Assembly (NCBI GenBank): GCA_963422205.2
Contig: CAXMWX010000003.1
Span: 64,001 to 128,000, forward strand
Length of the DNA stretch: 64,000 bases
Direction of reading: 5' to 3'
Origin: Gammaproteobacteria bacterium
GTDB lineage: Bacteria; Pseudomonadota; Gammaproteobacteria; Eutrophobiales; Eutrophobiaceae
Positions 38,435-40,792 of this stretch are shown here, piece by piece; within the stretch, counting starts at the first letter, position 1, and every line of letters starts with the position of its first letter. A model generated the notes under the pieces. That model ran no database searches. It was given only the letters and a program-made list of their open reading frames with translations, and was not told the DNA's origin. Made by a program: the position numbers and the translations under genes.

Positions 38435-40297
38435 ATGTCAGAAATTGAAGAATACGCCAGCCCGCCACAAGCCATCAGCGAGGATGATGACGAACAATCA
38501 CAACTGAAACTGCTCATCGCCAAAGGCAAGGAGCAGGGCTTTTTGACCTACCATGAAGTGAACGAACACCTGCCCGATGAGATAGTCGACCCGGAGCAGA
38601 TCGAAGAGATCATCAATATGATTACGGATATGGGCATTGAAGTGCATGAGTCGCCGCCGAATCTGGATTTGCTGATGTCTGCCAACACTACCGGCAGCAC
38701 AGATGATGCGGCCTCGGCGCTGGTGGCGGTGGAGAACGAATTTGGACGCACCACCGATCCTGTGCGTATGTACATGCGTGAGATGGGCACGGTCGATCTG
38801 CTGACCCGGGAAGGCGAGATCAAGATTGCCAAGCGCATAGAGGACGGGATTAACCAGGTGTTGTCAGCGCTGTCGTTATACCCGAACACGATTGACATGC
38901 TGATTGACGCCCACGGGCTGGTCGAGAAAGAGATCATGAAGCTGGCCGACATCATCGTTGGCTTTAACGATCAGGAAGAATACCCGGATGAGGGCTTGCC
39001 ACCGCCGGTCACCGAGGCGGCCAAGCGTGATACGAACACCAGCAAAGAGACCGACTCCGGCAGTGATGATGCGCCCGATTCCGCCATTGATACGGAAGAG
39101 ATACGGCGCACCATCAGGACGATTGACGGGATTCACAAAAAACATATCAAGGCGTTACAGCGCTATGGCCGCACGCACAAAAAGACCATCGCCCTGCAAG
39201 AGCAACTGACGGCAAAATTCATGGAGTTAAAACTTGCACCACGTTTTATTGATGATCTCACCAACAATGTCAGGGTGTTGATCGAGCTTATCCGTTCCAC
39301 CGAGCGTGAGGTGATGAAACTCTGTGTCCGTGTTGCCAAGATGCCGCGCAAGGATTTCATCGACTCTTTTCCCGGCAGTGAAATACAGCTTGACTGGATC
39401 AAACAGCATGTAAACAGCAACAGCCCCTATTCCTATGCCCTGGCGGGGATGCAGGAGGATATCATCAGGCTACAGCAAAGGCTGGCGGTTGCCCTGGAAG
39501 ATAATTTGTTGAGCATTGTGGAATTAAAAGAGATCAACCGCAAAGTCTCGCTCGGCGAAGCCAAGGCTAGACGGGCGAAAAAAGAAATGGTTGAGGCCAA
39601 TCTGCGGCTGGTGATCTCCATTGCCAAAAAATATACCAATCGTGGCCTGTTGTTTTTGGATCTTATCCAGGAAGGCAACATTGGCTTGATGAAGGCGGTG
39701 GATAAATTCGAATATCGCCGCGGTTACAAATTCTCAACGTATGCGACCTGGTGGATACGTCAGGCCATCACCCGCTCTATCGCCGATCAGGCCAGAACGA
39801 TTCGCATTCCAGTGCACATGATTGAGACCATTAACAAGCTCAACCGCATCTCGCGCCAGATACTGCAAGAGAAGGGGCGCGAGCCGACACCGGAAGAGCT
39901 GGCAGAAAAAATGGATATGCCGGAAGAGAAAGTCCGCAAGGTGTTGAAGATCGCCAAAGAGCCTATCTCCATGGAAACCCCGATAGGCGATGACGATGAC
40001 TCGCACCTGGGCGATTTTATCGAGGACTTGAATACCCTGGCACCATCGGACTCGGCCAGCTTTGAGGGTCTGCGGCGTGCAACCTGTGACTCCCTCGGCG
40101 GCTTAACCCACAGAGAGGCCAAGGTGCTGCGTATGCGTTTCGGTATTGATATGAACACCGATCACACGCTGGAGGAAGTCGGCAAGCAGTTTGATGTCAC
40201 CCGTGAACGTATCCGGCAGATTGAGGCCAAGGCGCTGCGGAAGTTACGTCACCCAAGCCGGTCGGAGCAATTACGCACATTTCTGGATCAGGGATGA
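38435..40297 (+). CDS. rpoD: RNA polymerase sigma-70 factor RpoD
   Basis: [42 protein letters not shown]. Confidence 0.99.
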
Positions 40298-40478
40298 GTG
40301 TTTTCAGGCCAGAGAGCGCTCAAGGAGGGCAGCGCTCACACGTTAAGGTGACAGGAACTGATCTATCGCATGGCGTCCTGTAACTCGCTGTCCGCTTGCG
40401 TTATAATAACCATCGTCATTGCAGACATGCACAGTGTGAACACATCTGATCAAGCATGTCTGACAAGTTTTCTATAGA

Positions 40479-40792
40479 GGGCCTGTAGCTCAGTTGGTTA
40501 GAGCAGTGGACTCATCAAAACGGTGCGTTCATATCGAAAGATATGAAATGAACGGGATGAATTCAGGGAAACCTTAACGGTTACGCTGATGGCAACCCTG
40601 AGCCAAGCCGGGGGTACACCGCCGGAAGGTGCAGAGACTACCTGAGAACTTCAGTGTTCTTAATAACAGGCAAGAGCGTCCCGCACCCTGCCGTTATCGG
40701 TATTAGGGGTGATGAGATAGTCCGCTCCTGTTGGAAATAACAGGAAAGAGTGAATCCATTGGTCGTAGGTTCAAGTCCTACCGGGCCCACCA
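40479..40792 (+). tRNA. tRNA-Ile2 (anticodon CAT, lysidine type) interrupted by an intron; exons 40479-40515 and 40753-40792
   Basis: Joined exons form a 77-nt cloverleaf GGGCCTG TA GCTC AGTTGGTTA GAGC A GTGGA CTCAT/AA TCCAT TGGTC GTAGG TTCAAGT CCTAC CGGGCCC A CCA. Paired 1-72 argues against initiator; sequence and position after rpoD fit Ile2. Confidence 0.93.
40516..40752 (+). ncRNA. Group I self-splicing intron (237 nt, no ORF)
   Basis: 5' splice after U with U.G pair in P1 (CAUC/GGUG); P AATTCAGGGAAA, Q AACCCTGAGCC, R GCAGAGACTA, S GAGATAGTCC; P7 GACTA 40636-40640 / TAGTC 40718-40722; terminal G 40752. Confidence 0.93.

What the first reader, a model, noticed from the sequence alone, without database searches (positions are those of the whole stretch)
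40479..40792. Group I intron in the anticodon loop of tRNA-Ile2(CAT) in a gammaproteobacterium
Seen: a 237-nt insert immediately 3' of the anticodon CAT. It shows P1 CAUC/GGUG with a U.G splice-site pair, P4 TTCAGGG/CCCTGAG, P3 GGGATG/CGTCCC, P7 GACTA/TAGTC, P8 CACCC/GGGTG, P9 TCCTGTT/AACAGGA and a terminal G. Established: bacterial tRNA group I introns are sporadic, and this same site is used by the Azoarcus tRNA-Ile(CAU) intron. Unlike that minimal intron, this one has an extra stem-loop (CCTG...CAGG, 40641-40670, plus CAAGAG) between P7 and P3', suggesting another subgroup or an independent invasion. It has no homing endonuclease ORF. Inference: if this is the only Ile2 gene, decoding AUA depends on splicing, and standard annotation would likely miss the gene.
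Basis: partly seen in the sequence, partly recalled or inferred. Interest (0 to 1): 0.8.

Follow-up and report, generated by a model that had tools for sequence, protein, structure and literature searches.

The report
Self-splicing intron in tRNA-Ile2 gene
The only gene for the tRNA that reads the isoleucine codon AUA in this bacterium is interrupted by a group I (self-splicing type) intron of a long-known kind, here in a widespread version with one extra conserved hairpin.

Summary
Confirmed. Window 40516-40752 is a 237-nt group I intron (Rfam RF00028, 76.5 bits, E 1e-17) between anticodon nt 36 and 37 of a tRNA-Ile2(CAU) gene (40479-40792). Five relatives carry the uninterrupted gene, letter for letter equal to the two exons joined, which fixes both splice sites. 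Across 33 orthologous introns, 98.9% of cells pair and 29 of 65 pairs show compensatory changes. It is the only Ile2-like tRNA gene found in the 98%-complete assembly. TilS is present, and AUA occurs in 1146 of 1207 long ORFs, so AUA decoding should depend on splicing.

The site and type are the classical 'Ile2.5Ug' IC3 class (Azoarcus; Williams 2020). tRNAscan-SE's authors already reported that such genes are missed.

The extra hairpin between P7 and P3' is real and conserved, and its inner stem covaries. It marks a separate intron lineage found in tRNA-Ile2 of at least 117 species genomes (103 labelled Gammaproteobacteria), with single relatives in tRNA-Lys(CUU) and a probable tRNA-Thr(UGU). 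Azoarcus-like Ile2 introns lack it and are only 49-51% identical. I found no description of this variant. Splicing itself is untested.

Earlier reports of this scan covered other tRNA group I introns, but none of those shown covered this hairpin form.

The parts
40479..40515 (+). tRNA-Ile2(CAU) 5' exon (37 nt), ending in anticodon CAT at 40513-40515
   Evidence: In relatives with an uninterrupted gene, query 1-37 abuts query 275-314. The joined exons are identical to the gene in L015-L019. That uninterrupted twin best matches E. coli features annotated tRNA-Ile, 83.1% over 77 nt.
40516..40752 (+). Group I intron, 237 nt, IC3-like core, no ORF
   Evidence: RF00028 76.5 bits, E 1.1e-17. Covariation on 33 orthologues. 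ARAGORN with its intron option reports a 237-nt intron.
40513..40525 (+). P1: exon CAU plus first intron C (40513-16) paired with GGUG (40522-25); U40515.G40523 at the 5' splice site
   Evidence: All four pairs are invariant in 33 of 33 sequences, so they are uninformative for covariation.
40528..40547 (+). P2, 8 bp with a GAAA loop
   Evidence: 8 of 8 pairs show changes on both sides.
40553..40559 (+). P3 5' strand, pairing with 40677-40683
   Evidence: 7 pairs, 100% of cells paired, 2 pairs with double changes.
40564..40600 (+). P4 (40564-68/40596-600), enclosing P5 (40572-73/40591-92) and P5a (40578-80/40586-88)
   Evidence: RNAalifold recovers these helices on its own.
40602..40630 (+). 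P6 (40602-04/40628-30) and P6a (40608-14/40619-25); this copy has a G.G mismatch at 40612/40621
   Evidence: 5 of 7 P6a pairs are compensatory. At the mismatched position the other sequences mostly have C-G, A-U or G-C.
40636..40640 (+). P7 5' strand (GACUA), pairing with 40718-40722 (UAGUC); forms a pseudoknot with P3
   Evidence: Invariant in 33 of 33 sequences. The same P7 letters occur in the Azoarcus-like introns L214 and L308.
40641..40670 (+). Extra hairpin at the P7.1 position: outer stem 40641-44/40667-70, inner stem 40645-49/40656-60, six unpaired bases UAAUAA at 40661-66
   Evidence: It appears as a 34-nt insert relative to the Rfam consensus. Two inner pairs are compensatory, in 13 and 9 of 33 sequences. 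The strongest mutual-information pair of the whole intron, over 140 sequences, lies in the inner stem. The outer stem is invariant in Ile2 introns and is GCGG/CCGC in the tRNA-Lys intron.
40671..40676 (+). Linker CAAGAG between the hairpin and P3'; the final AG is invariant
   Evidence: A168 and G169 are invariant in alignment A1.
40684..40711 (+). P8 (40684-88/40707-11) with a distal stem
   Evidence: 3 of 5 pairs are compensatory. The distal pairs covary.
40724..40752 (+). P9.0 (40724-26/40749-51), P9 (40727-33/40738-44, GAAA loop) and the terminal G at 40752
   Evidence: 6 of 7 P9 pairs are compensatory. For P9.0, the pair 40726/40749 is U-A in 92, G-C in 34 and A-U in 4 of 140 sequences, and RNAalifold also predicts it. 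The last intron base is G in 32 of 32 sequences.
40753..40792 (+). tRNA-Ile2 3' exon (40 nt) with encoded CCA
38435..40297 (+). rpoD (sigma-70) directly upstream; dnaG lies before it
   Evidence: Pfam domains. The rpoD-tRNA-Ile2 order is kept in 28 of 30 relatives' loci.

Best explanation
The stretch is a working tRNA-Ile2(CAU) gene interrupted, between anticodon nucleotide 36 and nucleotide 37, by a 237-nt ORF-less group I intron of the compact IC3 type.

**Proposed mechanism (all inferred from the established group I pathway)**
- The gene is transcribed as a 314-nt precursor.
- The intron folds into P1-P9 with the P3/P7 pseudoknot.
- Free guanosine attacks after U40515, which sits in a U.G pair in P1.
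- The freed exon end then attacks after the terminal G40752, which is held in place by P9.0.
- The product is a 77-nt tRNA. TilS can then convert C34 to lysidine so that the tRNA reads AUA.

**Shown here**
- The sequence, the splice-site positions and the conserved, covarying fold.
- The absence of another Ile2-like gene in the assembly.
- The presence of TilS and the heavy use of AUA.

**The extra hairpin**
- The hairpin between P7 and P3' is a peripheral element with invariant unpaired bases.
- It most likely buttresses the P3-P8/P7 core or makes a tertiary contact, as peripheral elements do in other subgroups. This role is inferred, not tested.

**Spread**
- The intron belongs to a lineage that is patchy among close relatives and has no endonuclease gene.
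- It probably spreads or is lost through RNA-level reverse splicing or recombination. This too is inferred.
For: **It is a group I intron with exact boundaries**
- RF00028 hit over the full model: 76.5 bits, gathering score 50.
- The joined exons are identical to uninterrupted genes in L015-L019.
- Many relatives have the two halves abutting.

**The fold is conserved**
- 33 sequences found by overall similarity: 98.9% of cells paired, 29 of 65 pairs with changes on both sides, 0 of 500 shuffles as high. Slid controls pair in 35-43% of cells.
- RNAalifold on its own recovers P2, P3, P4, P5, P5a, P6a, P8, P9, P9.0 and the hairpin's inner stem.
- U-1, the first intron base C, the GGUG guide and the terminal G are present in all 32 sequences.

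**The host is tRNA-Ile2**
- The uninterrupted twin best matches E. coli tRNA-Ile.
- It sits after rpoD, as in 28 of 30 relatives' loci.

**It is the sole Ile2-like gene found**
- The genome has 41 intronless tRNA genes and no Ile(UAU).
- Of the three other CAU tRNAs, two best match E. coli tRNA-Met (83.1% and 93.4%). The third is an odd 74-nt tRNA with no E. coli match and an acceptor stem nearly the same as that of the 93.4% tRNA-Met match on C3, which I read as the initiator.

**AUA decoding is needed**
- TilS family match: 180 bits, cut-off 93.6, 452-aa open frame.
- AUA is used 8.67 times per 1000 codons and occurs in 1146 of 1207 ORFs of at least 300 codons, including 7 in rpoD.
Against: - No RNA evidence from this organism. 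The skip joint 40515>40753 seen in two metatranscriptome runs (one contig each) is uninformative, because relatives without the intron have that same sequence as DNA.
- This copy has a G.G mismatch in P6a (40612/40621), where most orthologues pair.
- The consensus scan found no promoter-like site upstream. A TATAAT hexamer at 40402-40407 is visible in the sequence.
- The hairpin folded alone is no more stable than shuffled sequence (z -0.52).
- The assembly is 97.97% complete in 14 contigs, so a second Ile2 gene in a gap cannot be excluded.
- The identity of the odd CAU tRNA at C14:8906-8979 is open.
Confidence: 0.9

Rival explanations
1. The hairpin-type Ile2 intron descends from the same ancient insertion as the Azoarcus-type Ile2 intron and merely gained a hairpin. 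On this view the Lys and Thr copies are later transpositions out of tRNA-Ile2.
For: - Same host gene, same site, same U-1/terminal-G rule and the same P7 letters.
- The AU test does not reject a tree with all Ile2 introns held as one clade (p 0.095).
Against: - The window intron is 49-51% identical to four Azoarcus-like Ile2 introns, but 65% and 61% identical to the hairpin-bearing Lys and Thr introns.
- On 167 core columns, with the hairpin-to-P8 block left out, the 35 hairpin-bearing introns form one side of a branch (support 93/77). The Azoarcus-like introns sit with tRNA-Leu(UAA) across a starred branch (98/92).
- The constrained tree is 22 log-likelihood units worse.
- Long branches and only 167 columns weaken both readings.
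Confidence: 0.35
2. The extra hairpin is not a folding aid but a binding site for a host protein or a regulatory element. Splicing, and hence AUA decoding, would then be controlled or would need a cofactor.
For: - Many unpaired hairpin positions are invariant in 33 of 33 sequences: the unpaired U40661, A40663, U40664 and A40666, loop bases U40650, A40653 and G40654, and the linker AG.
- The terminal loop tolerates nested inserts of tens of bases, so the conserved base of the hairpin is what matters.
- The gene sits directly after rpoD.
Against: - No candidate protein is linked to it.
- Invariant unpaired bases are equally expected for RNA-RNA tertiary contacts.
- No covariation was seen between these bases and any other site.
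- Azoarcus-type introns self-splice without such an element (passages of PMC13168695).
Confidence: 0.15
3. The intron is decayed and no longer splices. The gene would be a pseudogene and AUA would be read by another route.
For: One G.G mismatch in P6a of this copy. No RNA data from the organism.
Against: - All core helices are intact, and 98.9% of cells pair across orthologues.
- No other Ile2-like tRNA or tRNA-Ile(UAU) was found.
- TilS is kept.
- AUA occurs in 95% of long ORFs.
- The exons are identical to working-looking genes of relatives.
Confidence: 0.03

Closest known systems
[quoted passage not shown]
   Same: - Same host tRNA and same insertion point after the third anticodon base.
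- U.G at the 5' splice site and a terminal G.
- Compact and ORF-less, with GAAA loops on P2 and P9.
- Same P7 letters as the Azoarcus-like metagenome introns.
- Williams lists Ile2.5Ug among the four classical bacterial tRNA intron types, all IC3 in GISSD (whole text read).
   Different: - The Azoarcus intron is 205 nt (passages of PMC13168695); this one is 237 nt.
- In four Azoarcus-like introns of 210-219 nt, P3' follows P7 at once. Here a 30-nt hairpin and a 6-nt linker intervene.
- Overall identity is only 49-51%.
- The P3, P8, J3/4 and 3'-tail sequences differ.
- I had no tool-given copy of the BH72 sequence. The four metagenome introns stand in for it.
Classical IC3 tRNA introns in tRNA-Leu(UAA) and tRNA-Arg(CCU)
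   Same: - Same core. There is blastn-level similarity over P4-P6 to a tRNA-Arg(CCU) intron (76% over about 80 nt, E 1.5e-9).
- The same genome carries a 333-nt tRNA-Leu(UAA) intron.
   Different: Both lack the hairpin: P7 is followed directly by P3'. Identity is 52-55%. They sit in other tRNAs, and the Leu intron sits at another loop position.
P7.1/P7.2 elements of subgroup IA introns (phage T4 td, Twort)
   Same: The extra structure lies in the same place, between P7 and P3'. This placement in IA introns is recalled and comes from no call. A paper title calling P7.1/7.2 an 'activator' was seen only in a reference list.
   Different: There is one bulged hairpin rather than two helices. The rest of the core is IC3-like, not IA. 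No sequence relation was tested.
Ile2 genes missed by tRNAscan-SE because of group I introns (Acidovorax, Burkholderia; Chan et al. 2021, PMC8450103)
   Same: The same annotation gap: a missing Ile2 gene explained by a group I intron that the program was not designed to detect (passage read).
   Different: Those cases are in Burkholderiales. The paper passage does not say whether they carry the hairpin.

Membership tests
Group I intron (Rfam RF00028) | Covariance-model score over the curated cut-off | tested here: met
   76.5 bits against 50, E 1.1e-17, model positions 1-253 of 253.
Group I intron (Rfam RF00028) | P1 with a U.G wobble at the 5' splice site, and a terminal G before the 3' splice site | tested here: met
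   U40515.G40523. The intron ends in G40752. Both hold in 32 of 32 orthologues.
Group I intron (Rfam RF00028) | Conserved P3-P9 core with the P3/P7 pseudoknot, supported by covariation | tested here: met
   13 helices, 98.9% of cells paired, 29 of 65 pairs compensatory. P7 and P1 are invariant, hence uninformative.
Group I intron (Rfam RF00028) | Guanosine-dependent self-splicing | not testable with these tools
   Needs in vitro transcription and splicing, or RNA from the organism. The metatranscriptome joints are uninformative.
Ile2.5Ug class (Williams 2020) | Host is tRNA-Ile2(CAU); the intron follows the fifth anticodon-loop base (nt 36); U at -1 and G at omega | tested here: met
   Empty-site comparison. 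Best E. coli match is tRNA-Ile. The definition was read.
Subgroup IC3 | Assignment by a subgroup-specific model or consensus (GISSD) | not testable with these tools
   No subgroup models are at hand. Indirect support: sequence similarity to a tRNA-Arg(CCU) intron of a classical IC3 type, and a compact core without a P5abc-like extension.
Subgroup IC3 | P7 joined directly to P3', as in the classical members | tested here: not met
   30-nt hairpin plus 6-nt linker between them. The classical Arg, Leu and Azoarcus-like introns have none. That this is a defining feature is my reading of those members, not a published rule.
Subgroup IA | P7.1 and P7.2 between P7 and P3' together with an IA-type core (feature list recalled) | tested here: inconclusive
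   A single hairpin occupies that position. The nearest sequence relatives are tRNA introns of the classical IC3 types. No IA model or sequence was compared.
tRNA-Ile2 (lysidine tRNA) | CAU anticodon, Ile2-type body, TilS in the genome | tested here: met
   Anticodon CAT at 40513-15. 83.1% identical to E. coli tRNA-Ile over 77 nt. C4-G69 and C5-G68 are present in the sequence; their role as TilS determinants is recalled. TilS match 180 bits.

The most novel reading that the evidence does not exclude
The hairpin-bearing introns form a so far undescribed sub-lineage of IC3-type tRNA introns. It is defined by a conserved bulged hairpin at the P7.1 position.

This lineage colonised the tRNA-Ile2 site independently of the Azoarcus lineage. 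It has moved between tRNA-Ile2, tRNA-Lys(CUU) and tRNA-Thr(UGU) without an endonuclease.

Its invariant unpaired bases form a new tertiary or protein contact that its splicing needs. In many Gammaproteobacteria this would make maturation of the sole AUA-decoding tRNA depend on that element.
Probability: 0.3. Interest if true: 0.55.

Novelty: new variant of a known kind. Interest (0 to 1): 0.35.

Why it matters
- **For annotation.** Genomes of this lineage look as if they lack tRNA-Ile2. ARAGORN in default mode finds nothing, and with its intron option it mislabels the gene as tRNA-Gln(CTG). Codon-decoding inferences and completeness checks on many gammaproteobacterial genomes and MAGs would be wrong at this point.
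- **For RNA biology.** The Azoarcus intron is a main model ribozyme. Here is a natural relative at the same site with one extra conserved element, available in at least 140 distinct natural sequences. That gives a ready comparative set for asking what a peripheral element adds to a minimal group I core.
- **For evolution.** Two intron lineages at one tRNA site, and one lineage in three tRNAs, bear on how ORF-less introns move.

Tried and rejected
- **RNA evidence.** Of the runs listed by the look-up of sequencing runs, only two (X1, X2) hold the stretch in full; their kind is not on record and they may be the source. The RNA runs listed hold only small shares of its words. I laid three metatranscriptome runs and one unlabelled run. 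Contigs 85-99% alike cover the exons and the intron core, so they come from relatives. The skip 40515>40753 (X18, X20, one contig each) cannot be told from intronless relatives' DNA. A single back-joint 40737>40550 (X18, one contig) fits no expected circle junction and is left unexplained.
- **Junction pattern in metagenome contigs.** Most of the 120 stretches were uninterrupted tRNAs whose own variable loop fits the pattern. Only 24 hairpin-type and 4 Azoarcus-like introns were usable. Seven other stretches that did not continue like an uninterrupted tRNA gave no intron end and were not resolved (L278, L283, L296, L324, L234, L289, and L320, which is cut by its contig end).
- **Junction pattern in 401 genomes of the class.** It found 27 genomes, all already known as hairpin-type, and no hairpin-less Ile2 intron in that sample.
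- **Tertiary partner of the unpaired hairpin bases.** Mutual information gave no convincing partner. Position 40713 in J8/7 correlates with several sites, including hairpin pairs, which looks like shared ancestry rather than contact.
- **Alternative hairpin pairing.** RNAalifold and the single-sequence fold prefer a 7-bp UGAGAAC/GUUCUUA stem. I prefer the CCUG/CAGG outer stem because the tRNA-Lys intron has GCGG/CCGC there. That rests on one sequence.
- **Rfam's long P1.** Rfam's 9-bp P1 overlaps P2. P2 covaries in 8 of 8 pairs, so P1 is taken as 4 bp.
- **ARAGORN's tRNA-Asp(atc) with a 346-nt intron on C3.** No RF00028 match lies there, so I treat it as a false call.
- **Literature.** Searches found no paper describing an IC3 tRNA intron with a P7.1-like element, or this intron in Lysobacterales, Steroidobacterales or Woeseiales. 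Table 1 of Williams 2020 is an image, and its supplementary alignment could not be seen. GISSD itself is not at hand. The variant may be present there without comment.

Full report
**What is there.** The tRNA gene spans window 40479-40792. Its 5' exon (40479-40515) ends in the anticodon CAT, then comes a 237-nt insert (40516-40752), then a 40-nt 3' exon with encoded CCA.
- Rfam's group I intron model is the only family reaching its gathering score in the whole window. It matches 40504-40744 at 76.5 bits (cut-off 50), E 1.1e-17, over the full model. The alignment shows a 34-nt insert right after P7.
- ARAGORN in default mode finds no tRNA in the window.
- With its intron option, ARAGORN finds the gene with a 237-nt intron. 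It shifts the boundary by two bases and calls the gene tRNA-Gln(CTG). It made the same error in most related loci.

**Splice sites.** A search of 61 related genomes gave two kinds of hit.
- Ten genomes, counting the window's own, carry the whole tRNA-Ile2 gene with its intron at 77-100% identity. An eleventh, G050, matches over the full length at 71% and proved to be a tRNA-Lys gene.
- Many others match the two exon halves directly abutting.
- The window's exons joined are letter for letter the uninterrupted gene in five loci, L015-L019.
- The intron is therefore exactly 40516-40752, between tRNA nucleotides 36 and 37. The 5' exon ends in U and the intron ends in G.
- All 32 distinct orthologues first collected start the intron with C and end it with G.

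**Fold.** I aligned 33 orthologous introns that had been found by overall similarity, not by any motif. I scored a hand-drawn structure with the P3/P7 pseudoknot on that alignment.
- 98.9% of cells form standard pairs, against 35-43% when the 3' partners are slid by 1-3 columns.
- 29 of 65 pairs have changes on both sides, and 0 of 500 shuffles reach any observed measure.
- P2 (8 of 8 pairs), P6a (5 of 7), P8 (3 of 5) and P9 (6 of 7) covary strongly.
- P1, P5, P7 and the outer hairpin stem never vary, so they say nothing either way.
- RNAalifold, which cannot draw the pseudoknot, recovers P2, P3, P4, P5, P5a, P6a, P8 and P9. It also recovers a 3-bp P9.0 just before the terminal G, and the hairpin's inner stem.
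- This copy has one G.G mismatch in P6a.

**Host gene and dependence on splicing.**
- The uninterrupted twin of the gene best matches E. coli features annotated tRNA-Ile (83.1%, full length).
- The gene follows dnaG and rpoD, as in 28 of 30 relatives' loci.
- The genome (97.97% complete, 14 contigs) has 41 intronless tRNA genes and no tRNA-Ile(UAU).
- Two of its three other CAU tRNAs best match E. coli tRNA-Met (83.1% and 93.4%). The third is an odd 74-nt tRNA with no E. coli match. Its acceptor stem is nearly the same as that of the 93.4% tRNA-Met match on C3, which I read as the initiator.
- A TilS family match is present (180 bits, cut-off 93.6).
- AUA makes up 8.67 per 1000 codons and occurs in 1146 of 1207 ORFs of at least 300 codons.
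- So, within the limits of the assembly, reading AUA should depend on removal of this intron. Splicing itself is inferred, not shown.

**The extra hairpin.**
- It lies between P7 (40636-40) and P3' (40677-83). It has a CCUG/CAGG outer stem, a 5-bp inner stem, six unpaired bases (UAAUAA) on the 3' side, and a 6-nt linker.
- In the unbiased set of 33, two inner pairs change on both sides (13 and 9 sequences) and one changes A-U to G-U (11 sequences).
- In 140 distinct Ile2 introns, the strongest mutual-information pair of the whole intron lies in this stem: G-C 86, A-U 41, C-G 12, one mismatch. 107 of those 140 were selected by a hairpin motif, but the motif left these pairs free.
- The outer stem and most unpaired bases are invariant.
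- Longer versions carry nested inserts in the terminal loop.
- An alternative 7-bp pairing is preferred by the energy-based tools. I favour the outer stem because a related intron in tRNA-Lys(CUU) has GCGG/CCGC there.
- The hairpin folded alone is not unusually stable (z -0.52).

**Distribution.**
- The intron is in 8 of 37 genomes of the window's family, counting its own.
- Using the intron as a blastn query, 35 of 400 genomes sampled across the class gave a hit, the window's own genome included. 28 of these were long matches and the rest were short core matches.
- Using a junction pattern that ignores the hairpin, 27 of 401 class genomes matched, all of them hairpin-type.
By record title these are 103 Gammaproteobacteria (Steroidobacterales 20, Lysobacterales 12, Woeseiales 6 and others), 12 with no class named, one Verrucomicrobiales MAG and one actinomycete record.
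- Cultured carriers include Lysobacter daejeonensis, Luteimonas aestuarii, Rhodanobacter fulvus, Rhodanobacter ginsengisoli and a Granulosicoccus strain.
- On a tree of the neighbouring RpoD C-terminus (28 rows), presence or absence of the intron needs at least 6 changes, of which 3 are forced by well-supported branches. The label is barely clustered: as low in 46-47 of 500 shuffles.
- Introns from other families are about as close to the window's (87-88%) as that of the same genus (88%).
- The intron is therefore gained or lost often. How it moves is not shown.

**Relation to known introns.**
- Williams (2020, whole text read) lists Ile2.5Ug as one of four classical bacterial tRNA intron types, all IC3 in GISSD, among 5292 tRNA introns found in about 80,000 genomes.
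- The tRNAscan-SE 2.0 paper states that missing Ile2 genes are caused by group I introns which the program was not designed to detect, and names Acidovorax and Burkholderia (passage read).
- The Azoarcus intron is 205 nt (passages).
- A metagenome scan gave four Azoarcus-like Ile2 introns of 210-219 nt at the same site, in which P3' follows P7 at once.
- The window intron is 49-51% identical to those four. It is 52-55% identical to tRNA-Arg(CCU) and tRNA-Leu(UAA) introns. It is 65% and 61% identical to hairpin-bearing introns in tRNA-Lys(CUU) and in a tRNA I read as Thr(UGU).
- On 167 core columns, without the hairpin-to-P8 block, the 35 hairpin-bearing introns form one side of a branch (93/77). 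The Azoarcus-like introns lie with tRNA-Leu across a starred branch. A tree holding all Ile2 introns together is 22 log-likelihood units worse but is not rejected (AU p 0.095).
- Two colonisations of the Ile2 site are thus the better reading, not a settled one.

**Verdict.**
- The kind is long known and the annotation problem is in print, so the finding as stated is ordinary.
- What I could not find described is the conserved hairpin at the P7.1 position, and the widespread gammaproteobacterial lineage it marks.
- Earlier reports of this scan covered other tRNA group I introns and cite the same catalogue. None of those shown dealt with this form.

Noticed in passing
G000:C9:118672-119091 (- strand; L003:1401-1820), outside the window: The same genome's only tRNA-Leu(UAA) gene is split by a 333-nt group I intron after U34. 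It ends in G, so it is the classical Leu.3Ug type, and it lacks the extra hairpin. RF00028 scores only 30.4 bits, below the cut-off. The gene sits in a Gly(GCC)-Cys(GCA)-Leu cluster.
   Followed up: partly
G000:C5:about 234700-235400 (L002:1008-1684), outside the window: The 23S rRNA gene has about 1 kb more sequence than the model positions it covers. It holds a sub-threshold RF00028 match (40.4 bits) overlapped at its 5' end by a 199-aa ORF with a LAGLIDADG endonuclease domain (E 2.7e-16). This is probably an endonuclease-carrying group I intron in 23S rRNA.
   Followed up: partly
G000:C14:8906-8979 (- strand; L213): A 74-nt tRNA with anticodon CAU. Its acceptor stem is nearly the same as that of the C3 tRNA read as the initiator, and its anticodon loop ends in AC. 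It has no blastn match in 5426 E. coli genomes. Its identity is unknown.
   Followed up: partly
L014:1501-1814 (- strand; G050) and L062:1423-1740 (G066): Hairpin-bearing relatives of the intron sit after nucleotide 36 of a tRNA-Lys(CUU) gene, in a Lys-His-Arg-Pro cluster, and of a tRNA that I read as Thr(UGU). ARAGORN calls the latter His(GTG). This suggests movement of one intron lineage between tRNA genes.
   Followed up: partly
window 40737 > 40550, in run X18: One metatranscriptome contig from a relative joins the P9 region back to the P2/P3 boundary (goes back 188 nt). This is not the junction expected for a group I intron circle. It may be an assembly artefact.
   Followed up: no
window 40527/40548 with 40713: In 140 introns, the bases flanking P2 (G.A in 58 sequences, C-G in 56) change together with the second base of J8/7 (U or A). 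This could be a base triple or just two clades.
   Followed up: no
L114 and one further locus: The hairpin-type Ile2 intron pattern also occurs in one MAG labelled Verrucomicrobiales and one record placed in Actinomycetes. This may reflect mis-binning or transfer; it was not examined.
   Followed up: no
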